Assembly (NCBI GenBank): GCA_016870135.1
Contig: VGCF01000001.1
Location: forward strand, 9,033-73,032
Length of the DNA stretch: 64,000 bases
Direction of reading: 5' to 3'
From: Alphaproteobacteria bacterium
GTDB taxonomy: Bacteria; Pseudomonadota; Alphaproteobacteria; Holosporales; Holosporaceae
Shown: piece by piece, positions 5,783 to 56,054 of the stretch
Numbering within the stretch: the stretch's first letter is position 1
How the letters are laid out: every line of letters starts with the position of its first letter
Translations under genes and position numbers: made by a program
The notes under the pieces: generated by a model
Told to the model about the DNA's origin: nothing
Seen by the model: the letters and a program-made list of their open reading frames with translations, nothing else
Databases searched by the model: none

Positions 5783-6181
5783 CTAAGCTTGACCCAGTAT
5801 ATTTTCTATGTGGGCAAGCACTTTTGGTGATCTGGACAAAGAAACCACCATAAGATCAAAGCGAATGGTGGACCATGGTTCATCACGGATATGGTTTTGT
5901 AAAAACCATTCTCCGGCTTGCCAAAGGCGTTTTTGTTGTCGTAATGTCAGGGCATACAGACCGTCATTCAGTTTTTCACGATTTTTAACCTCTATAAACA
6001 CCAATGCATTCCCACGATGCATCACCATATCCAATTCGCCATATCGGGTTTTATACCGTTTGTGCCACAATACATACCCCATGGTCTGTAAATATTCTGT
6101 GGCCAGATGTTCTGCAGCTACACCCTTTTCATAGGCTGTGGCCCTATTGGATGTCATAGGGGGATGGTCATACCGATTCAT
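5783..6181 (-). CDS. yraN: YraN family (UPF0102) endonuclease-like protein
   Basis: Motif GVAAEHLATEYLQTMGYVLWHKRYKTRYGELDMVMHRGNALVFIEVKNR is typical of UPF0102. The track ORF extends to 6262. A Met at 6181 (or 6157) is the more plausible start. Confidence 0.8.
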   Translation of the reverse strand: MNRYDHPPMTSNRATAYEKGVAAEHLATEYLQTMGYVLWHKRYKTRYGELDMVMHRGNALVFIEVKNREKLNDGLYALTLRQQKRLWQAGEWFLQNHIRDEPWSTIRFDLMVVSLSRSPKVLAHIENILGQA

Positions 6182-7550
6182 ACGGACAATACCAAACGAT
6201 GAACAGAGATGCACCCAACAGACATAAAAGCCAAAACTTTGACAACGCAGGTGTGCTGGCATCAGGATCTAAAATGGCTCTGTACTTGTATGCCTTGACC
6301 ATGGGTAACAGGATGATGACAAGGGATAGCCAGTGGACGATAAAGCCAAACTCTCTCCATATTTCGTCTATCGTTGGTATTTCTTTTAACAGACTCATCT
6401 CCAGAATATCCTCGTCCAAGGCAAAAGAATGAACCCACAATATAAACATGGACAACCACAACAACCACCGATCGCGCACAAATCCCGGTTGAAACAGGGC
6501 ATAAGCATGTAATACCATCATCATCATGATCCCAAGTTTGATATAAAACACCATAAACAGTTTCGGCGCGGGTAATGCGTTTGCGGATATTGTCAAAGTT
6601 GACAATATCCGAACGGCCTCAAAAAACAGCCAAATCATGCTGCGATTCATAATGGAACAGGGTTTCCACAGGGCAATCTGTTCTGGCAAGGCCCCAGGGC
6701 ATAACGCCGTCTTATCGGATGTTAAGGGCGGAGAATAAGTGTATTTGCGATTGACAAAGTACATAATAATCCAAAGCGGCGGGAAAATGTACCCAAGCGC
6801 CATACCAGCATTTCTCCAAAATCCAGGAATGCGCCACGATTGTAAGGTGATGAAGAAAACGGATGCAGAACATAGGAGCAGTAGCACATCCAAAACGGAT
6901 TTTTTAACAACAGTGTAGTCAAAAAAAATGAAAACAATGGCTGGTAACAGCAACAACAACCAACGCATAAAATACATAAATTTTTCAAATAATGGCGCCT
7001 GATCAAAAGCAGCCGTGTTCTTTTTCGTTAAATAGGGGATTGCCATCGCCCATACAATAAGCCCAATTGAGAAGGGAATGACAAACCGGAGAAAGTCAAA
7101 TACAAAAGGGCTTAAAACATTGCGCCATTGTGTATACATCTCTTGGGGAATACCCAACCGTACCCCAACCATTATGCCCAAAACGCCGCCCAATAGGGCC
7201 AATCCCTTGGCTGTTTTTCCATCTGGCCAGGTAAATAAAAACACAATGGCCGAAAATATCATGCCGATAGCAATCGTGTCCCGCGTGGTGTCGTATGTGG
7301 CACCTTGTGCAACTTGATCGGTCATAAACAGTACAGGATTGATCCACCATAACCCTGCGGATAGGGCCAAAAAACATGCAACAGACCACCCCAAAACACG
7401 CCGAGAATACAACACATTGGGATTACCCAACAGCGTGATGCCACTGCCAATCCAAGGTATACCCAACCATAAAATCAGCCACGGCATGGTGCCCATATAT
7501 GCGCTCATATCTAAACTCCCATTGATACATGAATAGGTCAATTTTTCCAC
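6168..7550 (-). CDS. polytopic integral membrane protein, function unknown
   Basis: 460-aa ORF with about 10-12 hydrophobic segments across its length. I recognise no family motif. Confidence 0.6.
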   Translation of the reverse strand: MEKLTYSCINGSLDMSAYMGTMPWLILWLGIPWIGSGITLLGNPNVLYSRRVLGWSVACFLALSAGLWWINPVLFMTDQVAQGATYDTTRDTIAIGMIFSAIVFLFTWPDGKTAKGLALLGGVLGIMVGVRLGIPQEMYTQWRNVLSPFVFDFLRFVIPFSIGLIVWAMAIPYLTKKNTAAFDQAPLFEKFMYFMRWLLLLLPAIVFIFFDYTVVKKSVLDVLLLLCSASVFFITLQSWRIPGFWRNAGMALGYIFPPLWIIMYFVNRKYTYSPPLTSDKTALCPGALPEQIALWKPCSIMNRSMIWLFFEAVRILSTLTISANALPAPKLFMVFYIKLGIMMMMVLHAYALFQPGFVRDRWLLWLSMFILWVHSFALDEDILEMSLLKEIPTIDEIWREFGFIVHWLSLVIILLPMVKAYKYRAILDPDASTPALSKFWLLCLLGASLFIVWYCPYESV

Positions 7551-13753: not shown

Positions 13754-14473
13754 ATGAAACATTGTTTATTTGGTGGTGCTTTTAACGCAGCCCATGATCA
13801 TCACCACGATCATCACCACGATCATCACCACGGTCACCACCACGGTCACCACAAAGCCATCAATCTGTTCATGGAAATTGTTGGTCCAAAATGGCGTCAG
13901 GTAGAACGTGTCATGGGTCAATTGCATTGCCCAGAACTCAGCCACACCCAATTGCAAGTCATTCGCGCAGAGGTTGCCTTATTGTGCTCTAACAAGCACC
14001 ACAAGCACAGCGTCAAGCACGCCTTGCACCACTTTTATCATGAATTTGGCGCCCACCATGTGGCCATACACAATCCTTATGTGCAGTTCGGTCCAATCGT
14101 TGCGCGAAAAATCATGCAATTAAAATTGGAATTGTGCCGCCTGAAAACAAAACTGATTCACAAAACCGATTCGATGCGTCAAATTGCATTGTTCAAGGAA
14201 TCCTTCTTGTTGGCCTATGATCGCTTGGGCAGCAAAATGAGTGCATTGCATTCTGCTGATTTGACCGTCAATGAACTAGAGCGCATCAAGCATGAAGTCG
14301 AAAAAGTATCCGAAGTCATTTGCCACAGCAAAGATGCATTTTACAGTTGCGTCGGTGGATTTGGAAAGCATATCGACCCCAGCGTCATTGCCATGGCCGA
14401 AGGGCTAAAGATGCAGTGGCATTCCTTAAAAGAAATGTTGCATCGTAAAGAAAAAGAAATTGCGCGCGCCTAA
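13754..14473 (+). CDS. histidine-rich hypothetical protein
   Basis: 239-aa ORF with GGAG 8 nt upstream of the ATG. The N-terminus is HDHHHDHHHDHHHGHHHGHH. The rest is helical with further HH/HxH and Cys pairs. No signal peptide and no family I recognise. Confidence 0.7.
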   Translation: MKHCLFGGAFNAAHDHHHDHHHDHHHGHHHGHHKAINLFMEIVGPKWRQVERVMGQLHCPELSHTQLQVIRAEVALLCSNKHHKHSVKHALHHFYHEFGAHHVAIHNPYVQFGPIVARKIMQLKLELCRLKTKLIHKTDSMRQIALFKESFLLAYDRLGSKMSALHSADLTVNELERIKHEVEKVSEVICHSKDAFYSCVGGFGKHIDPSVIAMAEGLKMQWHSLKEMLHRKEKEIARA

Positions 14474-14503
14474 AAAATTGCGTGCATCGTTGCTCTTGCT
14501 GTA

Positions 14504-14523
14504 CTGGGGTCTTTTGACCCCAG
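14504..14523 (+). terminator. stem-loop downstream of the His-rich gene (possible terminator)
   Basis: CTGGGGTC-TTTT-GACCCCAG gives a perfect 8-bp stem, 31 nt after the stop. No U-tract follows, so intrinsic-terminator function is uncertain. The equivalent position in repeat unit 2 is degenerate. Confidence 0.3.
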
Positions 14524-14570
14524 GTGGGCAAAATTGTATCAATCATCATCACGTATAGAGGAAGTTCCAT

Positions 14571-14765
14571 ATGTTACTCGATCAGGAGCAAGAAGAAAAA
14601 AAGCTTTCCAACCCACAAAAAGACACCCATATTGATATCAAAAAACTGAACAAGCTGATTGGCCTCACCAGAATTTTTGTATTATTGCGCTGCATTAGTT
14701 TTTTATTTGTTGCTATTGCTTTAATTATAATAATTATTGATAAAATGATTCACAGATTTCTTTAA
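14571..14765 (+). CDS. small tail-anchored membrane protein, cassette ORF A copy 1
   Basis: 64 aa. SD-like AGAGGAA lies 7-8 nt upstream. Charged N-terminus MLLDQEQEEKKLSNPQKDTHIDIKKLNKLIGLTRI, then one hydrophobic segment. Paralog at 15133. Confidence 0.55.
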   Translation: MLLDQEQEEKKLSNPQKDTHIDIKKLNKLIGLTRIFVLLRCISFLFVAIALIIIIIDKMIHRFL

Positions 14766-14837
14766 CTACAATAATTATTGATAAAATGATTCACAGATTT
14801 TAATATAAAAGAAAAAAGCGCAACGATGTCAAGCGTG

Positions 14838-14936
14838 ATGGTCCCTGTTCCCGATTTGACAAGACCACAGATAAAGACCGTGGCCAAGAATCCCAAAAAC
14901 CAAGCGATCACGCAGAACATCCAGCAATACAGGTGA
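14838..14936 (+). CDS. small basic hydrophilic peptide, cassette ORF C copy 1 (an in-frame ATG at 14826 is also possible)
   Basis: Encodes MVPVPDLTRPQIKTVAKNPKNQAITQNIQQYR. Between the two copies, 3 of the 4 nucleotide differences are synonymous in this frame. No clear SD. Confidence 0.4.
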   Translation: MVPVPDLTRPQIKTVAKNPKNQAITQNIQQYR

Positions 14937-14941
14937 CGCGC

Positions 14942-15079
14942 ATGATATGCACACTGATACTGACGCTGTTTAAATATTATCTAGTTTTTTTAGTTGTTTC
15001 TATTGTTTTGATTATTTTTTCTTTTGCCGATGAAATAATTATCGATAAAATGTTCCCGTTTTGTACTGATGTCTTTTGA
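14942..15079 (+). CDS. small hydrophobic peptide, cassette ORF B copy 1
   Basis: 45 aa: MICTLILTLFKYYLVFLVVSIVLIIFSFADEIIIDKMFPFCTDVF. The ATG lies 5 nt after the ORF C stop, and AGGTGA (containing that stop) serves as an SD. Confidence 0.45.
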   Translation: MICTLILTLFKYYLVFLVVSIVLIIFSFADEIIIDKMFPFCTDVF

Positions 15080-15132
15080 CCCTAGGCGGGCAAAATTGCA
15101 TCAACCATCATCACGCATAGAGGAAATCCCAC

Positions 15133-15333
15133 ATGTTACTCGATCAGGAGCAAGAAGAAAAAAAGCTTTCCAACCCACAAAAAGACACCCATATTGATAT
15201 CAAAAAACTGAACATGCTGATTGGCCTCACCAGAATTTTGCACGTATTGTGCGTTATCATTATTTTAATTTTATTACTCATTATTTTGATTTCCTGGATA
15301 GCAACAATATTATTCTATCTTCACGCCCATTGA
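15133..15333 (+). CDS. small tail-anchored membrane protein, cassette ORF A copy 2
   Basis: 66 aa. The first 107 nt differ from copy 1 at one position (K28M). Same AGAGGAA SD. The hydrophobic tail has diverged. Confidence 0.55.
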   Translation: MLLDQEQEEKKLSNPQKDTHIDIKKLNMLIGLTRILHVLCVIIILILLLIILISWIATILFYLHAH

Positions 15334-15560
15334 AACCATGCCATCACCCCTCACGCTTTCTGACTACACAAATGCCCCTTGGCAGTTACCTATTCCCAGT
15401 CTTTACAACCATTAAAGATGATGGATTCATTCGCTAAACTTTGGATCAAATTTTGGTTCAAATGCGCCAGAGTCACCTAATCCTCCATGGCACGCTTGTA
15501 ATAAAATGGTCTATGATATTGGGATATACATTGTTAATGAGCTTGCGTACCGTATCCTTT
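15310..15560 (-). repeat. inverted copy of the rnhB 3' end plus its downstream spacer (partner at 41417-41706)
   Basis: The reverse complement of 15310-15560 aligns with 41417-41706. I count about 20 mismatches and three indels (15, 3 and 21 nt) by manual alignment. Confidence 0.9.
15477..15560 (-). pseudogene. rnhB 3'-terminal gene fragment (non-functional relic)
   Basis: Reads KGYGTQAH*QCISQYHRPFYYKRAMED*. The intact RNase HII tail is KGYGTQAHQQCISQYGLSQHHRPFYCKRAMGE*. The fragment has an in-frame TAA, a 15-nt deletion and nothing upstream of the KGYGT motif. Confidence 0.85.
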
Positions 15561-15570
15561 AGGGTGTAAT

Positions 15571-15597
15571 AAGGATGATAAGGATGATAAGGATGAT
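15571..15597 (+). repeat. 9-bp tandem repeat (AAGGATGAT)x3
   Basis: aaggatgataaggatgataaggatgat sits directly at the junction of the rnhB-derived insert and ends 0 nt before the ATG at 15598. Confidence 0.9.
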
Positions 15598-15723
15598 ATG
15601 AAAGAAGAAAGGCACAATGAGCGATGGCCCCCTGTTCCCGATTTGACAAGACCACAGATAAAGACCGTGGCCAAGAACCCCAAAAACCAGGCGATCACAC
15701 AGAACATCCAGCACTACAGGTGA
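15598..15723 (+). CDS. small basic hydrophilic peptide, cassette ORF C copy 2
   Basis: Encodes MKEERHNERWPPVPDLTRPQIKTVAKNPKNQAITQNIQHYR. AAGGA of the 9-mer repeat lies just upstream. Conserved with 14838-14936, mostly through synonymous changes. Confidence 0.45.
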   Translation: MKEERHNERWPPVPDLTRPQIKTVAKNPKNQAITQNIQHYR

Positions 15724-15728
15724 CGCGC

Positions 15729-15833
15729 ATGATATGCAGACTGATAATGACGCTGTTTAAATATTATTTAATTTTTTTATTTTTTACGATTGTTGCAGTT
15801 GTTGTATTGTTTTTTATCATTTCTCGCTGTTAA
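15729..15833 (+). CDS. small hydrophobic peptide, cassette ORF B copy 2
   Basis: 34 aa: MICRLIMTLFKYYLIFLFFTIVAVVVLFFIISRC. Same AGGTGA-N5-ATG arrangement as copy 1. It is the 3' part of the 69-aa track ORF 15624-15833. Confidence 0.45.
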   Translation: MICRLIMTLFKYYLIFLFFTIVAVVVLFFIISRC

Positions 15834-23109: not shown

Positions 23110-24990
23110 TTAGTACCACAAAAAAGAGGCCAATTGAGATATTTTTTCACGACAGTTTTTTTGATCATAAGCTCTGACAGGGGAGGGTAAGTCTCCTGAA
23201 CGCAATTGAGACGATGCCATCACTTGAAAAGACTTGATGGTGCGCAAGATGTGATAAATGTTAGAATATTCCAGCTGTGACATGATGCCTCTTTTGTGCA
23301 ATTGTTGAGCAATGGAACGCTGTTGTTGGGCTTGTGCAAAAGACACAGGTGCATTACCCCCTAATCGTGGTGTCATCAAAAAGATCGCCGATGTGATGTT
23401 GTCACTTTGCTGATAATTAGAGGTAAAGTATTGTAGCAATGGGACGTTCTGCAACAATGGAAAACCGCCTTTGCTCTCGTTGCGCTGTTGGGTTTGGATA
23501 CCAGACAGCACAATGGTTTGACCCAGCATGGCTTTGACGGTGGTCGAGACCTTGCTCCTCTGGATTTGAATCAATTGGTTGGATATCCCGATACCAGAGT
23601 TTGGCAGGTTCACAAAATCTGAACCCACCAGCGTAATTTCCAGCACCACTTCTCCTGTTTCAGACAGAGAAACCGGACGAATTTCTATTTTCATACCAGC
23701 ATCAATGGATGCCGTTGCTGCACCGGTCAAGTTCCCTGCTGTGGAACCCGTATACTGAGCTCCCTGCAGAAAATAGGCAGAATGACCAAGGGTTGTTGAT
23801 AAACTGGCGCGCGATACCAATTCCACTTTTGATCGGCCAGAGTTGGCAATATTCAGACTGTACTGCATGGCAAAAGGCGTGATGCCATAGGCCAGAACAG
23901 AGGTGGTGCTGGTGGTGCTGATGTTATTGGCTTTGGCAAACTTTTTAGCAATATTCCACTGTGGCGAAGCACTAAGGTTACCCGCTGTATCCCCAATACC
24001 CCCCAACACAACTTGCAAGCTGTTAAAAATATTTTGCCCCCTGCTTTCTGTTTTTTGATCAGAATAACTGATCAGCGTCGTATCAAAAATCAACGATGGG
24101 GGAGAGTCCGCGCTTGTTTTTGTATCCAGGTTTTTATCGTCATTCCCTTTTTTACTTTCAAAAGATGAAAATTCAGAGTTGGGCCGCAGACCTGATGCCT
24201 CTGTACTGGGTGCTGACCCCCCCATCAACTGAATGCGCGTTCCTGTTTTTTCCCACTGATCCAGACGCTGTTTCATCACAGCAATATCCGATTGGTTTTT
24301 GCCAACCAATTGACTATAGGCATTGAGGTATTGGTCTGCCTTTGCTTTTTCTCCTGCGGCGGCACAAATCATGGCTGCCGATCGAATGATTTCTGGTTTT
24401 TTTGGACACATTTTTGCCGCTTTTTCAATAAATGTCAGAGCCACAGGCAAGTCATAAGCATAGTATGAGGCATAAGCCAGAGAATAGATTACATTTGAGT
24501 TAGAGGAGCATAGGGCATATGCTTCGACGAAATATTTCTGAGCTTCTTTGTATTTCGACATTTTTAACGCATTTAATCCGCGCAAATAATGGGTCAACCA
24601 CAAGGATGGATCCAAATCCATGGCTGTTCGATACGCAATTTCAATGAGCTCTTTACAATCGTCTTGACCGGTATCCAACAAAGATTCATAAATAAATGCA
24701 TTCAATAAGTGCAAAGCCGCATTTCGGGGTTCGATATTGATGGATTGATTAACGTACAGAGAGGCTTCTTTGAATTGGCCTTGCTGGATCAAGGCGTTGA
24801 CTTTGGGTAGAGAGAAAAAAGGAGGGAAGGAAACGGGCCCCTGTTTCAAAAAATCCATGGGTCCAGGTTTACCCGATGGCACGACAACCAGCCGTTGTTT
24901 TCGATTTTGACACCCTTGTTGTACAAACAAAGACAACCCCAGTGCCATCATTGTCTTCCAGAATACACGATCCATCATATACTGTTTCAT
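23110..24990 (-). CDS. TPR-repeat / secretin-domain outer-membrane protein (paralog 2)
   Basis: 626 aa. Signal peptide ending ...FVQQGC. The N-terminal ~230 aa are TPR-like helical repeats. A Ser/Lys/Asp linker follows. The C-terminal secretin-type domain reads IDAGMKIEIRPVSLSETGEVVLEITL ... SKVSTTVKAMLGQTIVLSGIQT ... KGGFPLLQNVPLLQYFTS ... AIFLMTPRL. Ends in FLWY. Confidence 0.75.
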   Translation of the reverse strand: MKQYMMDRVFWKTMMALGLSLFVQQGCQNRKQRLVVVPSGKPGPMDFLKQGPVSFPPFFSLPKVNALIQQGQFKEASLYVNQSINIEPRNAALHLLNAFIYESLLDTGQDDCKELIEIAYRTAMDLDPSLWLTHYLRGLNALKMSKYKEAQKYFVEAYALCSSNSNVIYSLAYASYYAYDLPVALTFIEKAAKMCPKKPEIIRSAAMICAAAGEKAKADQYLNAYSQLVGKNQSDIAVMKQRLDQWEKTGTRIQLMGGSAPSTEASGLRPNSEFSSFESKKGNDDKNLDTKTSADSPPSLIFDTTLISYSDQKTESRGQNIFNSLQVVLGGIGDTAGNLSASPQWNIAKKFAKANNISTTSTTSVLAYGITPFAMQYSLNIANSGRSKVELVSRASLSTTLGHSAYFLQGAQYTGSTAGNLTGAATASIDAGMKIEIRPVSLSETGEVVLEITLVGSDFVNLPNSGIGISNQLIQIQRSKVSTTVKAMLGQTIVLSGIQTQQRNESKGGFPLLQNVPLLQYFTSNYQQSDNITSAIFLMTPRLGGNAPVSFAQAQQQRSIAQQLHKRGIMSQLEYSNIYHILRTIKSFQVMASSQLRSGDLPSPVRAYDQKNCREKISQLASFLWY

Positions 24991-25001
24991 AATGCTCCTT
25001 T

Positions 25002-26852
25002 TTAAAAATAGAAAAAGCTGGTGGATAGGTTGCTTAATCGCTCTGACAATGGCTCTAACTGGTTTTCGGGGATGACCAGCGCATCGCTAGATTGGCAACC
25101 GTTGACTAGGGACATCTTGCCCAAATGATTTAAAATCAAGGCATAAGTCGAGGGACCAGAATAGGTAAATCCAGAGGGATCAGCCATATGCAACTCTTTA
25201 AAGACCTCGTTTTGATCTGGCATTTTGGTGTACGCCGTTTTGGCTTGACCGCCCAACTGAACGCTGAGAAGATATAATATCGTCGCTTCTGCACTGGTAT
25301 TATTCACCGCAGAGAAGAAGTATTGCAAAATAGGGATATTACCCAGAACTGGGAATCTGGAATCAGCAACTTTTTTGATGGTTGTTTTTAATCCACCCAC
25401 GATGATGGTTTGACCGGCATACGCTTTGACAATGGTGGATATTTTAGAACTGTTGACTTGCACCAACTGGTTTTCTAACCCTTGAGACACGGCAGATTGA
25501 GATAACACTCTGCTGCCCCCAGCACCCACAGCCGCTGCTGACGTCATGGTTATATCCAATGTAATCAGACCATCTTCTGTAATATTGATGGGCTTTACTT
25601 CCAGTTTATCCCCTGCATCAATGGTCACCAAAGATCCACCAGCCGGTGCCGCCTGGATAATGTTACCCGCGAAAAAGGCCGCTGGTTTACCCATGAGTGT
25701 AGAAATGGTTGGTCGAGAAGCGTAGGTGGCAATGGATCGCGATGCATTGGCAATATTCAGGGCATAATTCAAGGCCGCCGGCGTGATGTTGTAATTAAAC
25801 GTGTGCCCCTTTAACTGCGCTGATGGGTCGGAATTGGTAGTACTTTTAATATTGACCCCTTGCCTTCCCCACCAAAATAACGGTTTTGCACCTGTAGAAT
25901 TGGCGGTTGATCCCCCCAGCACGACTGACAGAGGATTGGTCACATTTTTGACTTGATCATAGGCATTAAATACGTTGTTGCCTTTTTGCTGATTGTTACT
26001 TTGGTTCACCAACAAAATATACCCATTCAAAATAATGCTGGGCACGTCATCGCTTTCTTTTTTATCGCCTTTATTATCTTCTTTTTTATCGTCCTCCGTG
26101 CCAGCCATCCGTGTAATTTTACTGTTGGCGTGCAACCCTTTCCAATATTCTATTCTGCTCTTGATGTGCAGCAAATCTCCTTTGCTGGCTTTTCCAGCCC
26201 ATTTTTCATAACAGTCAAAGGCGACCTGACTGTCTTGAAAATGGCCGCTGGCCGCGTAAATCACAGAGGCCGTTCGGTAATACAAGGGGTTATTTGCGCA
26301 CAAGGACAGGGCTTTTTTAATAGAGCAATACGCTGTTTTAATATCCCCATTGCGATAAGAGGCGCATGCCAATACATACAACAGTTTAGGCTCATCAGGA
26401 CGCATCATCACACCTTGGGCAAAGTGACGTTGTGCCATAAAGGCGTCCCCCTGGGATAAATACTGTTGGCCCAATAAATAATGGGCTGCGGGATTAGACT
26501 GATCGGCGGTCAGCGCGGCTTGATAAGCCACCGTTGCCATTTTTCCTGCGTTGCTCTCTCCTAACTGGGCTCTGGATTCCCAGATGAACCCTTGGGCAAT
26601 GTGAAGGGCCGAACAGTTTGGATAATTTTCCAATGTTTTATTGATGTAACTGGATGCTTCGCTGAGTTGGTTTTTCTGAACAAAGCCAAGCAACAGTGCC
26701 AAGGAAAAAGAGCTTGGGAACTGAGAATGCAAGTCTTTTAAAAAAGACATTTTATCGGAATAGATCAGTGATTTTTTTGAAACGACTTTATCTGATTTAG
26801 AGCACCCTGCAACGATTAGACAGAGGATGTTGGCCAAATACCATCTTTTCAT
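25002..26852 (-). CDS. TPR-repeat / secretin-domain outer-membrane lipoprotein (paralog 1)
   Basis: 616 aa. Canonical lipobox LIVAGC|S, TPR-like N-domain, KKEDNKGDKKESDD linker. Secretin-type domain reads IDAGDKLEVKPINITEDGLITLDITM ... SKISTIVKAYAGQTIIVGGLKT ... DSRFPVLGNIPILQYFFS ... TILYLLSVQL. Ends in FFYF. There are 11 nt to the downstream paralog. Confidence 0.75.
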   Translation of the reverse strand: MKRWYLANILCLIVAGCSKSDKVVSKKSLIYSDKMSFLKDLHSQFPSSFSLALLLGFVQKNQLSEASSYINKTLENYPNCSALHIAQGFIWESRAQLGESNAGKMATVAYQAALTADQSNPAAHYLLGQQYLSQGDAFMAQRHFAQGVMMRPDEPKLLYVLACASYRNGDIKTAYCSIKKALSLCANNPLYYRTASVIYAASGHFQDSQVAFDCYEKWAGKASKGDLLHIKSRIEYWKGLHANSKITRMAGTEDDKKEDNKGDKKESDDVPSIILNGYILLVNQSNNQQKGNNVFNAYDQVKNVTNPLSVVLGGSTANSTGAKPLFWWGRQGVNIKSTTNSDPSAQLKGHTFNYNITPAALNYALNIANASRSIATYASRPTISTLMGKPAAFFAGNIIQAAPAGGSLVTIDAGDKLEVKPINITEDGLITLDITMTSAAAVGAGGSRVLSQSAVSQGLENQLVQVNSSKISTIVKAYAGQTIIVGGLKTTIKKVADSRFPVLGNIPILQYFFSAVNNTSAEATILYLLSVQLGGQAKTAYTKMPDQNEVFKELHMADPSGFTYSGPSTYALILNHLGKMSLVNGCQSSDALVIPENQLEPLSERLSNLSTSFFYF

Positions 26853-27144
26853 AAGCCTATCGGTCTTTCCTTAGAAAACTTATTGTAAAATCTATCGGTA
26901 ATCGATGGGCAAGTCAATGAATAAAAAGATATATTTTTTACATTATATTTTTGAATAGTTTATTTTTACTAAAAAAAAGTAAAAATGATACTCTAACAAA
27001 AATATTCGATTTTTTTAAAAACACTGCGGGGTTAACGCCTTTGAAAAAGATTTTTTAACTTTTTATGGATCTTATTCTGAATTTTGAAAAAACCCCCAGA
27101 TCCTGTTACTCTAGAGTGACAAAATTGCTCTGGCATCGTTTAAA

Positions 27145-38278: not shown

Positions 38279-39646
38279 ATGGCAAACTGTACAAACAACA
38301 GGTTTTTAAAGTCTATGGGGCGGTACGGTTTTGCACCAAAACCCATTGTTTTTTTCGCTCTGGTCATGTCTATTGTTTCCGTTAATGGGGACGAAGCCCA
38401 AGAGGGTGATGCTGGACACAGCGCAACCAAGAGCCGCCCTCAACCATCGGGCAAGCGTCCTCATTCAAAATCTAGGCTCACCAAAAAATCGTCGGGCAAG
38501 GGTGAGGGATCAGACCGTAAAGATAAAAAAGAGGGACAAACAGCTGGCAATAGGGTGAACAACCCTAAACCCCCTAAAACAAGAGGGGCAGATTCTGGTC
38601 AGGGATCAGAGGAAAAAGGGGGTAGGGGGGGAGAGTCTAAAAAACCAGGTTCTGAAAAAAGCAATGCGGCCATGGCGGTTGGTACAACCACTCTAGAAAC
38701 AGTGAGTGACAAAGCCGTTGTGGAGTCCTCTCCATCATCATCTGAGCCAGCATCACCCCATGGGTTTTCATTCGGTGCAGGATCCGGTGCGGGCGCCCAA
38801 GGATACATTGAATGCGTCAGTGGCATCATCGCTCTGACTATGTCCAATCAAGAAGCCAGTATGGGTGTCATTTCTGAAATTCCTGTTTCAGAGGGGCAAA
38901 GTGTTCGAAAAGGCGATATCCTTTTGGTTTCCAGTCATTACTCTATTCGAGAAAAGCAAAAAACTGTGGCTGAACTGGAATATCATTTGGCCAAAACAGA
39001 TCTGGAGATTGCAAAAAACAAGTCCCAAAAGTGTAAAGAAAAACTGGGGCGCCATGAAAAAATGCTTTTCAGTAAGGCTGTTTCTCGTCAAGAATTTGAA
39101 AATATTCAAAAAGAGTCTGCAGAGGCCGATTTGGTTGTAGAAAAACAGAAAATCTCACTTCAAATTGCTGCGCAAAAAGTAGAATTATGTAAAGATTTGT
39201 TGGAACAATGTCACATTCGAGCACCGATGGATGGCGTGATTCTGGCCATCAATGGCAAGGTGGGGGAACAAAGCAGGCCCCATGAAGGTCTGTTAATTAT
39301 GGCTGATTTGACTCGGTTGGAAATTGTGAGCGAAGTGCACGAAAATGATATTTCTAGAATCTTTATTGGTCAAAGAGCGGAAATTTCTTTTCCAAACAAA
39401 ATGCCTCCGATTACAGGCTATGTCAAATATATTTCCAGCATTGTGCGATCAAATACGTTACAAGAGGCCGATCCTAAAAAAAACCAGGACCTACGGGTTA
39501 TAGAGGTGCGCATATCCCTTACGGATGAAGATTCCCTGAACATAAAAAATTTTTTGCGTATGCATACCGATGTTCGATTTTTTGGTCCAGACGACGATCA
39601 AGTCAGTCGATCTATAACGGCCGTTAACCAGGCTCGTGCCGTATAA
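38279..39646 (+). CDS. HlyD/DevB-type membrane fusion protein (periplasmic adaptor) with low-complexity N-terminal region
   Basis: GGAGG lies 8 nt upstream. N-terminal TM, then a ~130-aa Lys/Gly/Ser-rich tract. Next a lipoyl-like hairpin (VSEGQSVRKGDILL), a long coiled coil, then IRAPMDGVILAI ... VHENDISRIFIGQRAEISF ... ADPKKNQDLRVIEVRISL, as in DevB-family adaptors. Confidence 0.75.
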   Translation: MANCTNNRFLKSMGRYGFAPKPIVFFALVMSIVSVNGDEAQEGDAGHSATKSRPQPSGKRPHSKSRLTKKSSGKGEGSDRKDKKEGQTAGNRVNNPKPPKTRGADSGQGSEEKGGRGGESKKPGSEKSNAAMAVGTTTLETVSDKAVVESSPSSSEPASPHGFSFGAGSGAGAQGYIECVSGIIALTMSNQEASMGVISEIPVSEGQSVRKGDILLVSSHYSIREKQKTVAELEYHLAKTDLEIAKNKSQKCKEKLGRHEKMLFSKAVSRQEFENIQKESAEADLVVEKQKISLQIAAQKVELCKDLLEQCHIRAPMDGVILAINGKVGEQSRPHEGLLIMADLTRLEIVSEVHENDISRIFIGQRAEISFPNKMPPITGYVKYISSIVRSNTLQEADPKKNQDLRVIEVRISLTDEDSLNIKNFLRMHTDVRFFGPDDDQVSRSITAVNQARAV

Positions 39647-39683
39647 GGTGTGATCAAGAGGACCGTGCGTTTGGCCATTCATA

Positions 39684-40778
39684 ATGGGGGATATCCCCCA
39701 GAATCCCCCCTGGAAAACGCGCGTCGGTTTCGTTGACAGGGGTTTTTTACACATTTTATTTTATGAACTTGTTTTAATTGAGATATTATTAATGTTCTGT
39801 TTTGACAATCATTTGGTCATTGCTTGTTTTGTAATTCTTGCTGCAGTAAATACAGCCTCTGTTTTTTACCCCAGATTGTGGGCTAAAAATACGTTGGTAC
39901 GAGGTGGTTGGGTGTCAGACCGTTATATTGTGTGCAATCTGGTGTGCTGGTTGGGGGTGTGCTCTGGCCTGATGAATGGGTATGGAGCCATGATTTTGGG
40001 TCTATTTGTTGGGTGTTGTGCGGTTTTTTACGGGTCAAAGACCTTTAGGCGTGGATTTTTACACCATAACACGGTCAAAAACAGGGGTATATCCTTTCTG
40101 ACAGCCGTGGCTTTTTTCTGTATAGTGACCATTTTTTTCGGCGTTTTACATCATCAATTGCCAGGATTTTTCAATGTTTGTGCGTTGTCATATTACAAAG
40201 TTTCAGAACATTTTGTGCCTTATACGATGTGGTTTAATTTTGATCGCACGTTATTAGCCATGGTGCTGTGTATGTATGGGGTGCTTCGTACACAACACGC
40301 TGAATCTTTTCACAGAAACCCAGCCACTGTGGTATGGATTCTTGCAAGCTTTGCAGCCACTATAACGGGGGTGGCGTTGTGTGCTCTCAGAATTGGGTAC
40401 ATCGAATGGGATATCAAGTGGCCAAGCATTCAGGTTTTATGGTCCATAAATAATATCTTTTTTGTTTGTTTGGTTGAAGAAATTTGGTTCCGTGGGTTTT
40501 TGCAAGGTCAAATAAAGCAGGGTTTTACGCGTGTGCTCAGCCCAAACGTCATGGGTTGCAGGCCTCATATTCTGGCTGCAGCTGTGATTTTTGGCATAGA
40601 TCACGCCATCAAAGGTGGCCCGGTTTATGGGGCCTTGGCCGTTCTGGTCGGTTTGTTTTACGGGATTGTTTACGATCAAACAGGGCGTATCCAGTATGCT
40701 TGGGCCGATCACTTTTTGTTTAATCTGTTGCACCTGATCTTGTTTACCTATCCCGCATCCACAGGTATTTTATCATGA
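39684..40778 (+). CDS. CPBP family intramembrane glutamic endopeptidase (CAAX protease/Abi-like)
   Basis: 364 aa, polytopic. Motif 1 is EEIWFRGFLQ, motif 2 is FGIDHAIKG, motif 3 is HFLFNLLH. The start codon is uncertain. The stop overlaps the rnhB start (ATGA). Confidence 0.8.
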   Translation: MGDIPQNPPWKTRVGFVDRGFLHILFYELVLIEILLMFCFDNHLVIACFVILAAVNTASVFYPRLWAKNTLVRGGWVSDRYIVCNLVCWLGVCSGLMNGYGAMILGLFVGCCAVFYGSKTFRRGFLHHNTVKNRGISFLTAVAFFCIVTIFFGVLHHQLPGFFNVCALSYYKVSEHFVPYTMWFNFDRTLLAMVLCMYGVLRTQHAESFHRNPATVVWILASFAATITGVALCALRIGYIEWDIKWPSIQVLWSINNIFFVCLVEEIWFRGFLQGQIKQGFTRVLSPNVMGCRPHILAAAVIFGIDHAIKGGPVYGALAVLVGLFYGIVYDQTGRIQYAWADHFLFNLLHLILFTYPASTGILS

Positions 40779-55587: not shown

Positions 55588-55765
55588 AGTATGAACAGCC
55601 TTTTTATATTTTAAAATGATATTTTAATATGATTCAAAATTTGCGATTTGTCAATAAAAATAAAATATCTATAAAGGAAAATTTGTTTTGGCTGCGCAGT
55701 CAATCTCTTGATTTGTACGGTTGGCCGCGCTCTGTCTGGGTAAAACGCTGGGTAAACCATCCGGA

Positions 55766-56002
55766 TTAGGGCTGTTGGGAGGATGGCCCTTTTTTGGTGT
55801 GAAAGGCAAGGGGTTTGGCAGGACTGGATGGGGTGCTGTTCTTTGGCCCTTGGGTGAGTTGTTCCACAGAAATGGGGATTTCCACCAAACGCGCCATGGG
55901 GGGCATCCAATACATTGCTGCAATAACGGCTAGGGCGATGGCGCCTGCAGTGAAAATCATTAGAGTAATTTTCCAATGGGATATGAAAATCTTGTTGAGC
56001 AT
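55766..56002 (-). CDS. possible small membrane-anchored protein (hypothetical)
   Basis: 78-aa ORF with one N-terminal TM (ITLMIFTAGAIALAVIAAMYW) and a Pro/Ser-rich tail. Weak AGG upstream. Competing overlapping ORFs exist in the same 467-bp gap. Confidence 0.3.
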   Translation of the reverse strand: MLNKIFISHWKITLMIFTAGAIALAVIAAMYWMPPMARLVEIPISVEQLTQGPKNSTPSSPAKPLAFHTKKGPSSQQP

Positions 56003-56054
56003 GGTAACCTAATTGAAGTATAATCTTTTGTATCGGAAACAATGAGAAAAAGCA

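What the first reader, a model, noticed from the sequence alone, without database searches (positions are those of the whole stretch)
23110..26852. Two tandem, orphan TPR-secretin fusion lipoproteins with no other secretion-system genes nearby
**Seen in the sequence**
- Two adjacent minus-strand genes (616 and 626 aa, 11-nt gap) share one architecture.
- Each has a signal peptide. The upstream one has a canonical LIVAGC lipobox.
- About 230 aa of TPR-like helical repeats follow, then a charged or Ser-rich linker.
- The C-terminal domain carries the hallmarks of the secretin family: IDAG.K.E..P....E.G...L.I.., SK.ST.VKA..GQTI...G..T, and (R/G)FP.L.N.P.LQYF.S followed by a hydrophobic strand.
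- Each ends with a terminal aromatic residue (FFYF / FLWY), typical of outer-membrane beta-signals.
- I see no N0/N1-type ring-building domains between the TPR module and the secretin core.
- The surrounding ~20 kb on either side contains no T2SS, T4P, Tad or T3SS ATPase, platform or pilin genes.

**Established knowledge**
- Secretins normally need separate small lipoprotein pilotins.
- In T4P and Tad systems these pilotins are TPR lipoproteins (PilF/PilW, TadD).

**Inference**
- These look like self-piloting pilotin-secretin fusions.
- They are present as a diverged paralog pair, which could form a heteromeric channel or two separate channels.
- I do not recall a characterised secretin with this layout.
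Basis: partly seen in the sequence, partly recalled or inferred. Interest (0 to 1): 0.8.

Follow-up and report, generated by a model that had tools for sequence, protein, structure and literature searches.

The report
Orphan TPR-fused lipoprotein secretin pair
Two neighbouring genes of a protist-symbiont bacterium encode outer-membrane pore proteins (secretins) whose usual periplasmic ring domains are replaced by a lipid-anchored TPR module; they belong to a large, unstudied family that is almost never found next to the machines secretins normally serve.

Summary
Two co-oriented genes, A (25002-26852) and B (23110-24990), both on the minus strand, lie 11 nt apart with a Shine-Dalgarno in the spacer. 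Each encodes signal peptide with lipobox Cys, ~200-aa TPR domain, disordered linker, secretin core (PF00263, E 2e-17 and 9e-19) and an ~80-aa helical tail. No N0/N1-N3 domain exists. The 64-kb window (Holosporales, near Candidatus Finniella) holds only housekeeping genes.

The pair is not unique. An exhaustive profile search finds about 470 clusters with this layout in Alpha- and Betaproteobacteria, Elusimicrobiota and Rokubacteria, all unnamed. Shared marks are the lipobox Cys, conserved polar TPR residues, a 'P.L..IP..QYFFS' motif and a C-terminal F-L-Y/W-Y/F. In 81 lineages the gene is never beside a T2SS/T4P ATPase. About a third carry a periplasmic pentapeptide-repeat protein just downstream. 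The tandem duplication is specific to the Finniella-like clade and both copies are under purifying selection (dN/dS ~0.08).

Best reading: self-targeting liposecretins forming gated pores independently of a co-encoded type IV filament machine. Function and cargo are inferred, not shown. The 'beta-signal' claim is not supported, and pilotin homology of the TPR is inconclusive. I rate it a new variant of a known kind.

The parts
25002..26852 (-). Gene A: 616-aa TPR-secretin lipoprotein, the divergent paralogue
   Evidence: ORF. PF00263 E 2.2e-17 plus TPR_2 and TPR_17 above cut-off. AF2 model pLDDT 78.4, pTM 0.66. dN/dS 0.075-0.079 against L001/L002. Keeps 47 of 63 family-conserved positions.
26802..26852 (-). 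A: signal peptide and lipobox (MKRWYLANILCLIVAG|C17)
   Evidence: Sequence. Cys17 is invariant in the 20-sequence alignment and present in 99% of 146 sequences.
26124..26732 (-). A: TPR domain, residues ~41-243, 11 helices
   Evidence: Pfam TPR hits. AF2 pLDDT 91-97. Foldseek matches to CTPR and OGT TPR structures. Conserved polar residues N71, H84, N87(Q in A), Y91(W in A), Y110, Y166, D170, R233, W237.
26043..26123 (-). A: charged disordered linker, residues 244-270
   Evidence: AF2 low pLDDT and no secondary structure. Low conservation.
25248..26042 (-). A: secretin core, residues ~271-535 (first barrel strand, beta-lip, gate hairpins, 'RFPVLGNIPILQYFFS' motif)
   Evidence: PF00263. PDB profile hits to PilQ, pIV, GspD and MxiD. 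Foldseek E 1e-14 to 1e-11 against secretins of all classes.
25005..25247 (-). A: C-terminal helical extension, residues 536-616, with the FRxGD-type motif and terminal SFFYF
   Evidence: AF2 helices 537-541, 549-557 (pLDDT ~95), 568-579 and 602-613. D590 conserved in 99% and the terminal F-L-[YW]-[YF] motif. No Pfam family matches it.
24991..25001 (-). 11-nt intergenic spacer AAAGGAGCATT carrying the Shine-Dalgarno for B; implies an operon
   Evidence: Sequence. The 11-nt spacing is conserved in L001 and L002. No terminator-like site between the genes on the minus strand.
23110..24990 (-). Gene B: 626-aa TPR-secretin lipoprotein, the paralogue closer to the family consensus
   Evidence: ORF. 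PF00263 E 9.3e-19 plus TPR_2. dN/dS 0.075-0.087. Keeps 56 of 63 family-conserved positions. Nests within the main clade in the NJ tree.
24910..24990 (-). B: signal peptide and non-canonical lipobox (…LSLFVQQG|C27)
   Evidence: Sequence. The Cys aligns with the invariant lipobox Cys, and more distant B orthologues have canonical L-SGC or L-SAC.
24235..24840 (-). B: TPR domain, residues ~51-252
   Evidence: Pfam TPR_2 34 bits. Alignment to A. Weak near-full-length match to PilF 2fi7/2ho1, E 0.007.
23356..24099 (-). B: secretin core, residues ~298-545
   Evidence: PF00263 at 386-543. Alignment to A.
23113..23355 (-). B: C-terminal helical extension, residues ~546-626, with LRSGD and terminal SFLWY
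   Evidence: Alignments.
26889..26917 (-). Possible sigma-70-type promoter TTGACT-17-TAGATT, 37 nt upstream of the start of A (weak evidence)
   Evidence: Consensus scan. The number of such sites in the region is not above the shuffle expectation.

Best explanation
**What it is**
- A and B are co-transcribed paralogues of a widespread, uncharacterised secretin subfamily that I call 'TPR-liposecretins'.
- Each is exported by Sec, lipidated at the conserved Cys and sent to the outer membrane by Lol.

**How it most likely works (inferred)**
- The secretin core oligomerises into a gated multimeric pore.
- The N0/N1-N3 ring domains, which in all characterised secretins build the periplasmic vestibule and contact the inner-membrane platform, are replaced by a lipid-anchored five-to-six-repeat TPR domain on a flexible linker.
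- I infer two roles for this TPR. It acts in cis as a built-in pilotin or assembly chaperone, as PilF, PilW, Tgl and TadD do in trans. In the assembled pore it forms a periplasmic docking ring.
- The conserved helical tail ending in F-L-Y-Y/F plays an S-domain-like stapling or docking role.
- The pore works without a co-encoded type IV filament machine and takes Sec-delivered periplasmic cargo.
- In the Finniella-like clade an old tandem duplication gave two specialised copies that act together, either as a mixed ring or as two rings.

**Shown:** domain layout, lipobox, family-wide conservation, orphan context, operon structure, purifying selection.

**Inferred:** outer-membrane location, multimerisation, self-piloting, independence from T2SS/T4P, cargo.
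For: - **Secretin identity.** Secretin domain and fold.
- **Lipobox.** Cys nearly invariant across 146 sequences of 21% mean identity.
- **No N-domain.** TPR modelled at pLDDT >90, followed directly by a disordered linker and the first secretin strand.
- **Low-confidence beta-lip.** The lip region 292-367 is low-confidence in the monomer. This is compatible with the Tgl/PilQ model, in which a TPR pilotin holds an unfolded beta-lip (PMC10653833).
- **TPR size and pilotin resemblance.** The TPR has the size and lipoprotein nature of T4P and Tad pilotins, with weak near-full-length matches to PilW, PilF and TadD.
- **Self-piloting precedent.** Lipid-anchored self-piloting is established for the liposecretin HxcQ (Viarre 2009, cited).
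- **Family size.** About 470 clusters at E<=1e-30, and 150 of 150 top hits show the same one-piece architecture.
- **No machinery nearby.** The 64-kb window has no secretion machinery.
  - In 81 lineages, no T2SSE, T2SSF or PilMNOP family is among the recurrent neighbours.
  - In about 1.02 Mb of locus DNA, no ORF has the T2SS/T4P ATPase Walker-A signature.
- **Candidate cargo.** Large lectin, FN3 and FG-GAP proteins are adjacent in several lineages.
- **Related genome.** The complete genome of a related Paracaedibacteraceae symbiont is reported to encode only Sec and T6SS (PMC8163844).
- **Both copies functional.** Equal dN/dS of about 0.08, an SD in the spacer, and conserved 11-nt spacing.
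- **Specialisation.** Each paralogue has fixed substitutions at sites that are otherwise 80% or more conserved.
Against: - There is no experimental datum for any member.
- The rest of this genome could not be searched. A T4P, Tad or T2SS platform encoded elsewhere is not excluded, and Holosporales are reported to have 'incomplete type IV pili' (PMC9992710).
- TPR similarity to pilotins is no better than to generic TPR proteins.
- The AF2 monomer does not confidently dock the tail anywhere (residues 595-615 have pLDDT <50).
- Covariation between tail and TPR gave no signal.
- How a secretin gate would open without a piston or needle is unexplained.
- Two of 81 lineages have a prepilin-like gene nearby.
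- The lipobox of B in this window is non-canonical.
Confidence: 0.5

Rival explanations
1. Conventional role in trans. A and/or B is the outer-membrane secretin of a type IV pilus, Tad pilus or T2SS whose ATPase, platform and pilins are encoded elsewhere in the genome. The fused TPR simply replaces a separate PilF-, PilW- or TadD-type pilotin.
For: - Best sequence matches of the core are to PilQ and MshL.
- The TPR resembles PilW, PilF and TadD weakly but over nearly full length.
- Holosporales are reported to carry incomplete type IV pili, and some carry Tad pili (PMC9992710).
- Prepilin-like genes lie near the family gene in L056 and L118.
- Orphan secretins that serve a distant machine are known from my own knowledge (XqhA of P. 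aeruginosa); this was not checked here.
Against: - No N0 or N-domains, which are the parts that contact PilP or GspC and build the vestibule (PMC10653833).
- Scores are far below every curated secretin-class cut-off.
- The gene is never adjacent to T4F ATPase or platform genes in 81 lineages or about 1 Mb of DNA.
- The family is roughly equidistant from PilQ, pIV, GspD and SctC, and furthest from RcpA.
- A related complete symbiont genome is described with only Sec and T6SS.
Confidence: 0.2
2. Polymer or giant-adhesin exporter. The TPR is not a pilotin. It is a periplasmic scaffold like the TPR parts of BcsC, PgaA, PelB or AlgK, handing a polysaccharide or a very large surface protein to the channel, which here is a secretin instead of a porin barrel.
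For: - The one-polypeptide 'N-terminal TPR plus C-terminal outer-membrane channel' layout mirrors BcsC and PgaA (weak PgaA model hit, E 0.059).
- Secretins have been implicated in slime export, and a pentapeptide-repeat protein co-purifies with cyanobacterial PilQ (PMC12475490).
- A pentapeptide-repeat protein is the commonest neighbour of this family.
- Giant lectin, FN3 and FG-GAP proteins are adjacent in several lineages.
Against: - No glycosyltransferase or synthase genes are among the recurrent neighbours.
- None of these partners is present in the window or in Finniella-like loci.
- Reduced endosymbiont genomes are unlikely to keep exopolysaccharide machinery. This last point is inference.
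Confidence: 0.15
3. Outer-membrane partner of the atypical Holosporales type VI secretion system. That system is reported to lack recognisable components including the lipoprotein TssJ.
For: - The Holosporales T6SS is described as non-standard, with missing outer-membrane and tube components (PMC11909080).
- A and B are outer-membrane lipoproteins conserved in this clade.
Against: - The family is widespread outside Holosporales and is not next to tss genes in any of 81 lineages.
- A tssJ-like gene was found in a related symbiont.
- No known T6SS uses a secretin.
Confidence: 0.05
4. Decaying remnants of a lost secretion system with no current function.
For: - The genome is a reduced endosymbiont genome.
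- The genes are orphan.
- The lipobox of B is non-canonical.
Against: - Both ORFs are intact.
- dN/dS is about 0.08 in both.
- Synteny and spacing are conserved down to 50% identity.
- Family-wide motifs are retained.
Confidence: 0.03

Closest known systems
Liposecretins (HxcQ of P. aeruginosa; also BfpB, TcpC)
   Same: The secretin polypeptide itself carries an N-terminal lipobox. For HxcQ the lipid anchor makes it self-piloting, with no separate pilotin (Viarre 2009, cited).
   Different: The following rests on my own knowledge and was not tested here. Those proteins keep N0/N3-type domains, lack a TPR module, and are encoded inside their T2SS or T4bP clusters. A and B have a TPR instead of N-domains and are orphan.
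T4aP secretin PilQ with its TPR lipoprotein pilotin PilF/PilW/Tgl; Tad RcpA with TadD
   Same: The combination of a secretin core with a ~200-250-aa TPR outer-membrane lipoprotein is the same. PilQ is the best-scoring solved secretin (56 bits). PilW, PilF and TadD give weak near-full-length matches to the TPR.
   Different: Here the two are one polypeptide. There are no AMIN, N0 or N3 domains and no pilMNOP or tad genes nearby. Scores are far below curated cut-offs (39-50 bits against 284; 35 against 154). A C-terminal tail is present that PilQ lacks.
T2SS and T3SS secretins with an S-domain (GspD/PulD, InvG/MxiD) and their pilotins
   Same: A C-terminal helical extension follows the barrel. 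Foldseek's longer alignments are to S-domain-bearing secretins. The concept of a pilotin binding the extreme C-terminus of the secretin also applies.
   Different: The tail has its own conserved motifs (FRxGD and terminal F-L-Y/W-Y/F). No sequence similarity to S-domains was shown. Binding of the tail to the TPR is only a hypothesis.
TPR-porin exopolysaccharide exporters (BcsC, PgaA, PelB; AlgK-AlgE)
   Same: One polypeptide with a periplasmic N-terminal TPR and a C-terminal outer-membrane channel. AlgK is a TPR lipoprotein.
   Different: The channel here is a multimeric secretin, not a monomeric 16-18-strand barrel. No synthase operon is nearby.
Cyanobacterial PilQ 'nozzle' with a co-purifying pentapeptide-repeat protein (PMC12475490)
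   Same: Association of a secretin with a pentapeptide-repeat protein. In this family a signal-peptide-bearing pentapeptide-repeat protein sits at +1 in 25 of 81 lineages.
   Different: That association involves a canonical PilQ. In the window and in Finniella-like loci there is no pentapeptide-repeat gene next to the pair.
Asticcacaulis sp. AND118 plasmid protein WP_226746377.1, annotated 'tetratricopeptide repeat protein'
   Same: Same lipobox-TPR-secretin layout, with a 307-bit match over family HMM positions 6-591. It is orphan among hypothetical proteins and comes from a cultured organism.
   Different: It lacks the F-L-Y-Y terminus and keeps the canonical 'P.LGD.PLIG' secretin motif. It is a neighbouring subfamily.

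Membership tests
Secretin superfamily (Pfam PF00263) | C-terminal secretin domain above the curated cut-off | tested here: met
   A 63.6 bits and B 68.1 bits against a cut-off of 27.5.
Secretin superfamily (Pfam PF00263) | Secretin protomer fold (double beta-barrel strands and gate hairpins) | tested here: met
   AF2 model with strands at pLDDT 92-96. Foldseek probability 1.0 and E 1e-14 to 1e-11 against InvG, PulD, GspD, PilQ, RcpA and pIV.
Secretin superfamily (Pfam PF00263) | At least one or two N-domains (N0/STN, N1-N3/Secretin_N) before the core | tested here: not met
   No Secretin_N, STN, AMIN or BON hit at E<=1. Only a disordered 27-aa linker lies between the TPR and the first strand. 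The requirement is stated in PMC10653833.
Secretin superfamily (Pfam PF00263) | Heat- and SDS-stable 12-16-mer in the outer membrane | not testable with these tools
This needs biochemistry or cryo-EM.
Type IVa pilus secretin PilQ (TIGR02515) | Score above the curated cut-off; AMIN/N0/N3 domains; pilMNOPQ linkage | tested here: not met
   39 and 50 bits against a cut-off of 284. No such domains. No pil genes in 64 kb.
T2SS secretin GspD (TIGR02517) / T3SS SctC (TIGR02516) / MshL (TIGR02519) | Score above the curated cut-off and location in the cognate gene cluster | tested here: not met
   32-46 bits against cut-offs of 238-351. No cognate genes nearby.
Tad secretin RcpA/CpaC | Similarity to RcpA and linkage to tad/cpa genes | tested here: not met
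   RcpA is the weakest of the solved secretins (33 bits). No tad genes are nearby.
TPR pilotins PilF/PilW (TIGR02521), Tgl (NF033762), TadD | Outer-membrane lipoprotein made of about six TPR motifs | tested here: met
   Lipobox Cys. 11 helices, roughly five TPRs plus a cap, residues 51-242.
TPR pilotins PilF/PilW (TIGR02521), Tgl (NF033762), TadD | Specific sequence membership (curated cut-off) | tested here: not met
   35 and 29 bits against a cut-off of 154 for PilW; 20 bits against 225 for Tgl.
TPR pilotins PilF/PilW (TIGR02521), Tgl (NF033762), TadD | Closer to pilotins than to generic TPR proteins | tested here: inconclusive
   PilF E 0.007 and TadD E 0.055, against designed CTPRs at E 1e-21 to 1e-30 and Tom71, Cdc16 and NlpI at similar or better E.
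Liposecretins (HxcQ type) | Lipobox on the secretin polypeptide itself | tested here: met
   IVAGC in A. The Cys is conserved in 133 of 146 by a relaxed lipobox rule.
Liposecretins (HxcQ type) | Encoded within, and serving, a T2SS or T4bP cluster; N-domains present | tested here: not met
   Orphan context and no N-domains.
TPR-porin polysaccharide exporters (BcsC/PgaA/PelB) | C-terminal monomeric beta-barrel porin and linkage to a synthase operon | tested here: not met
   The C-terminal domain is a secretin. PgaA model E 0.059 on the TPR only. No synthase among the neighbours.
TPR-liposecretin family defined here (profile of alignment A2) | Lipobox Cys, ~200-aa TPR, linker, secretin core with P.L..IP..QY[FL]F, tail with FRxGD, and terminal F-L-[YW]-[YF] | tested here: met
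   Both A and B align full-length. B keeps 56 and A keeps 47 of 63 positions that are 80% or more conserved in the rest of the family.

The most novel reading that the evidence does not exclude
TPR-liposecretins define a stand-alone outer-membrane translocation pathway that does not depend on type IV filament machinery.
- A secretin pore has its N-domain ring replaced by a lipid-anchored TPR ring.
- The pore self-assembles through TPR/beta-lip or TPR/C-tail (F-L-Y-Y) contacts.
- It is gated by, or works with, a periplasmic pentapeptide-repeat rod in many lineages.
- In Finniella-like endosymbionts the partner is instead a second paralogue, giving a hetero-oligomeric pore used at the host interface.
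Probability: 0.3. Interest if true: 0.85.

Novelty: new variant of a known kind. Interest (0 to 1): 0.62.

Why it matters
Every secretin studied so far is the outer-membrane end of a larger machine (T2SS, T3SS, type IV or Tad pili, filamentous phage). Each uses N-domains to build the vestibule and reach the inner-membrane platform.

This family drops those domains, fuses a pilotin-like TPR lipoprotein instead, and is encoded apart from any such machine. It has hundreds of members across phyla. If it is truly stand-alone, it asks how a secretin gate can be opened and energised without a piston.

It would also give a natural one-chain model for pilotin-secretin assembly. In reduced protist endosymbionts it would identify a conserved outer-membrane conduit that current inventories score as 'incomplete type IV pili / GspD'. 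It would correct annotation too, since members are currently labelled 'hypothetical', 'TPR protein', 'PilF' or 'GspD'.

Tried and rejected
- **Word-indexed homology searches.** These suggested a tiny Finniella-only family of 14-23 hits. The exhaustive profile search overturned this.
- **First AF2 run with 20 sequences.** It was mediocre (pLDDT 61.8). The rerun with 146 sequences is the one used.
- **Automatic metagenome scans with alignments A2 and A3.** Both failed because no stretch was conserved enough. I replaced them with a hand-made degenerate DNA pattern for G.P.L..[ILV]P.[ILV]QY[FL]F.
  - This pattern is biased. It captures about half of the family and misses both A and B.
- **Single-linkage clustering of neighbours.** It merged pentapeptide-repeat proteins with TAXI binding proteins. 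I separated them by hand.
- **Tail-TPR covariation by MI with APC on 210 sequences.** No clear signal (maximum z 4.3) and underpowered. This is neither support nor refutation.
- **Phage origin (pIV-like).** No tblastn match in 50,697 phage records and no phage genes nearby. Rejected.
- **Beta-signal reading of the C-terminus.** Rejected, because the motif ends a predicted helical extension and not the last barrel strand.
- **T6SS partner idea.** No linkage to tss genes was found. Kept only as a low-probability rival.
- **Model coordinates.** Not available, so intramolecular contacts could not be inspected.
- **Genome-collection scan.** Spent on a single-protein query, so the rest of this genome could not be searched for ATPases or pilins.

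Full report
**1. Observation**

The window carries two co-oriented minus-strand ORFs: A (25002-26852, 616 aa) and B (23110-24990, 626 aa).
- The 11-nt spacer reads AAAGGAGCATT, so a consensus Shine-Dalgarno lies 5 nt before the ATG of B.
- No terminator-like site lies between them on that strand.
- A and B are 30% identical over about 550 aa, E 1e-80.
- Pfam finds the Secretin domain in both (A 372-529, 63.6 bits; B 386-543, 68.1 bits; cut-off 27.5) and TPR_2 above its cut-off.
- No Secretin_N, STN, AMIN or BON domain appears even at E<=1.
- All curated NCBIfam secretin-class models (PilQ, MshL, GspD, SctC, HofQ) match only weakly, at 32-50 bits against cut-offs of 238-351. The PilW pilotin model covers the TPR part at 35 bits against a cut-off of 154.

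**2. Anatomy**

An AlphaFold2 model of A built on 146 family sequences reaches mean pLDDT 78.4 and pTM 0.66. An earlier model on 20 sequences reached 61.8. The model shows:
- a signal peptide ending at Cys17;
- an 11-helix TPR superhelix at about residues 41-243 (pLDDT 91-97);
- a disordered charged linker at 244-270;
- directly after it, the first long secretin strand at 272-290;
- a low-confidence beta-lip region at 292-367;
- the gate and barrel hairpins at 368-534 (pLDDT mostly 82-96);
- a helical C-terminal extension (537-541, 549-557 at pLDDT ~95, 568-579, 602-613).

Foldseek matches the core to secretins of every class at E 1e-14 to 1e-11: A. caldus 8jvb, InvG, PulD, GspD, PilQ, RcpA and pIV. 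It matches the N-terminal part to generic TPR structures. A profile search of PDB sequences ranks M. xanthus PilQ first among secretins (56 bits), then pIV (52), V. cholerae PilQ (51), MxiD and GspD (~45), with RcpA last (33). The core is therefore a true secretin but roughly equidistant from the known classes.

**3. Context and organism**

All listed ORFs of 120 aa or more in the 64-kb window, apart from ones nested within larger ORFs, were scanned against Pfam. They are housekeeping genes: ATP synthase, HrcA/GrpE, MurC-like, TatD, an Hsp70-like protein, UvrB, an OmpR-type regulator, Ctp protease, a HAD hydrolase, RmuC, a HemN-like protein, PntB, LigA, DnaX, RNase E, PriA, GatAB, MurB, DnaE, XseA and MiaB. 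The window also holds two tRNAs and SRP RNA. There is no T2SS, T4P, Tad, T3SS or T6SS gene.

The closest genomes are Holosporales MAGs, including Candidatus Finniella inopinata at 86-88% identity. B is identical to a MAG protein annotated 'hypothetical protein FJX00_00160 [Alphaproteobacteria bacterium]'.

The tandem pair, the 11-nt spacing and the order RmuC | A | B | HAD | Ctp | regulator | UvrB are conserved in L001 and L002 and in a relative of only 50% identity. A still more distant contig (38-40% identity) also has the A-type/B-type tandem, with different neighbours. In another lineage a second copy lies divergently upstream (L007/L008).

dN/dS against L001 and L002 is 0.075-0.087 for both genes.

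**4. The pair belongs to a large family**

Word-indexed searches found only 14-23 relatives. An exhaustive HMM search of 1.84 billion representatives gave a different picture:
- 470 proteins at E<=1e-30;
- the top 150 almost all 560-700 aa, matched in one stretch from the TPR to the C-terminus.

Named members come from Elusimicrobiota, Rokubacteria, Rhodospirillaceae, other Alphaproteobacteria and Sulfuritalea. All are annotated hypothetical, 'TPR repeat protein', 'PilF' or 'GspD'.

Across 146 sequences with 21% mean identity the family keeps these features:
- the lipobox Cys (99% of occupied columns; 133 of 146 by a relaxed rule);
- polar TPR residues N71, H84, N87, Y91, Y110, Y166, D170, R233 and W237;
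- secretin residues including a 'P.L..IP..QYFFS' motif in place of the canonical IP.LG.LF;
- a tail motif FRxGD (D in 99%);
- the extreme C-terminus F-L-[YW]-[YF].

A neighbour-joining tree places the A-type clade (8 leaves) as sister to a 29-leaf clade in which the B-type clade nests. Of 63 positions that are 80% or more conserved in the rest of the family, B keeps 56 and A keeps 47. Each paralogue clade has its own fixed replacements, for example N87Q and Y91W in A, and P395A and F523T in B.

**5. Neighbourhoods across the family**

Eight individual look-ups showed unrelated, mostly housekeeping neighbours. A custom degenerate DNA pattern for the family-specific motif retrieved 120 metagenome loci.
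- Including the loci fetched earlier, 124 loci carry a family gene, in most cases full-length, and they fall into 81 lineages at 70% identity.
- Outside the Finniella-like clade there is one copy per locus.
- A signal-peptide-bearing (sometimes lipobox-bearing) pentapeptide-repeat protein sits immediately downstream on the same strand in 25 of 81 lineages. That is 21 of the 66 lineages with enough downstream DNA.
- A TAXI/NMT1_3 solute-binding protein sits immediately upstream in 15-18 lineages.
- Several lineages have adjacent giant lectin, FN3, tectonin or FG-GAP proteins.
- A bulk Pfam scan of 289 neighbours lists Pentapeptide (23), NMT1_3 (13), SBP_bac_3 (8), HisKA (8) and others. No T2SSE, T2SSF, pilin, PilMNOP or Secretin_N family is among the recurrent ones.
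- In about 1.02 Mb of locus DNA plus the window, no ORF has the T2SS/T4P ATPase Walker-A signature. Only two have prepilin-like N-termini.
- Neither the pentapeptide-repeat nor the TAXI partner occurs in the window or in Finniella-like loci.
- A cultured Asticcacaulis strain carries a more distant lipobox-TPR-secretin protein on a plasmid, among hypothetical proteins.
- No phage record matches.

**6. Literature**

Nine full-text searches found no description of a TPR-secretin fusion or of this family. Relevant background:
- Canonical secretins have at least two N-domains. T4aP pilotins are six-TPR lipoproteins, and Tgl is predicted to hold the unfolded beta-lip of the PilQ monomer in its groove (PMC10653833).
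- HxcQ is a self-piloting liposecretin (reference).
- A pentapeptide-repeat protein co-purifies with cyanobacterial PilQ (PMC12475490).
- A related complete symbiont genome is described with only Sec and T6SS (PMC8163844).

**7. Interpretation**

Shown:
- the architecture;
- lipobox conservation;
- absence of N-domains;
- operon structure;
- purifying selection;
- a large family;
- systematic separation from T4F genes.

Inferred:
- Lol-dependent outer-membrane targeting by the protein's own lipid anchor, by analogy with HxcQ;
- multimeric gated pore formation, from the secretin fold;
- a cis pilotin or docking role for the TPR, from its size, its lipoprotein nature, weak resemblance to PilF, PilW and TadD and the low-confidence beta-lip;
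- an S-domain-like role for the conserved tail.

The idea that the TPR binds the F-L-Y-Y terminus could not be tested. The AF2 monomer leaves residues 595-615 at low confidence, and covariation was uninformative.

The main rival is a secretin that serves a T4P, Tad or T2SS encoded elsewhere. It cannot be excluded, because the rest of the genome was not searchable. It is disfavoured by the missing N0 and N-domains and by the neighbourhood statistics.

**8. Verdict**

These are real secretins of a new architectural variant, members of a widespread but undescribed family. The tandem paralogue arrangement is a speciality of the Finniella-like clade. Function, cargo and gating remain hypotheses.

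Noticed in passing
L011 11964-12890; L012 5330-6382; L044 6342-7553; L116 2496-3539; L132 2591-3628 and about 30 other loci: A periplasmic pentapeptide-repeat protein (PF00805) of ~270-350 aa lies immediately downstream of the TPR-secretin gene on the same strand in 25 of 81 lineages. It has an N-terminal C..C.LRY motif, a C-terminal Cys pair and a Pro-rich tail. It is absent from the window and from Finniella-like loci.
   Followed up: partly
L012 1476-2636; L047 4503-5594; L111 157-1164 and others: A TAXI-type (NMT1_3, PF16868) solute-binding protein lies immediately upstream on the same strand in 15-18 lineages. In L012 the cluster continues with a CHAT protease and a CHASE2-guanylate cyclase.
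   Followed up: partly
L083 3-5849; L121 4508-12826; L031 604-3648; L100 10429-12021; L009 5287-9879: Very large secreted-type proteins lie adjacent to the family gene in several lineages. They include a Ricin-B lectin (1948 aa), a 21xFN3 plus tectonin protein (2773 aa), a jacalin lectin (1014 aa), an FG-GAP/ASPIC protein and a 1530-aa protein of unknown family. They are possible cargo.
   Followed up: partly
L056 8064-8573 (-); L118 2896-3585 (-): Two loci carry a prepilin-like ORF (N-terminal G-F-[TS]-L-[IV]-E-L, or its AFSLVEL variant in L118) within a few kb of the family gene. In L118 it is at position +2 on the same strand. This is the only hint of a link to type IV filament proteins.
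   Followed up: no
L007 3-227 (-); L008 3-245 (-): In the P0026 lineage a second family copy starts divergently upstream of the first, head to head. Paired copies therefore also occur in a non-tandem arrangement.
   Followed up: no
L134 (Asticcacaulis sp. AND118 plasmid NZ_CP084912.1) 6110-13005: A cultured Caulobacterales strain has a lipobox-TPR-secretin protein (WP_226746377.1, annotated only as a TPR protein). It sits in a cluster with another TPR protein and three hypothetical proteins without Pfam hits. This may be an experimentally tractable relative.
   Followed up: partly
window 13754-14473 (+): A 239-aa ORF with a strongly His-rich N-terminus (HDHHHDHHHDHHHGHHHGHH) and no Pfam match. 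It may be a metal-binding protein.
   Followed up: no
window 14500-15794: This AT-rich region (GC ~0.40) has no long ORF. It contains a segmental duplication: 14500-14708 is 89% identical to 15062-15270, and 14843-15007 is 93% identical to 15630-15794. There is also a 41-nt tandem repeat at 14715-14796. The duplicated small ORFs have hydrophobic tails.
   Followed up: partly
window 38279-40778 (+): An HlyD-family membrane-fusion protein is followed by a CAAX/Rce1-like intramembrane protease. No adjacent ABC transporter or TolC was noticed.
   Followed up: no
window 6168-7550 (-); 55611-56042 (-): ORFs of 460 aa and 143 aa without any Pfam match at E<=0.001.
   Followed up: no
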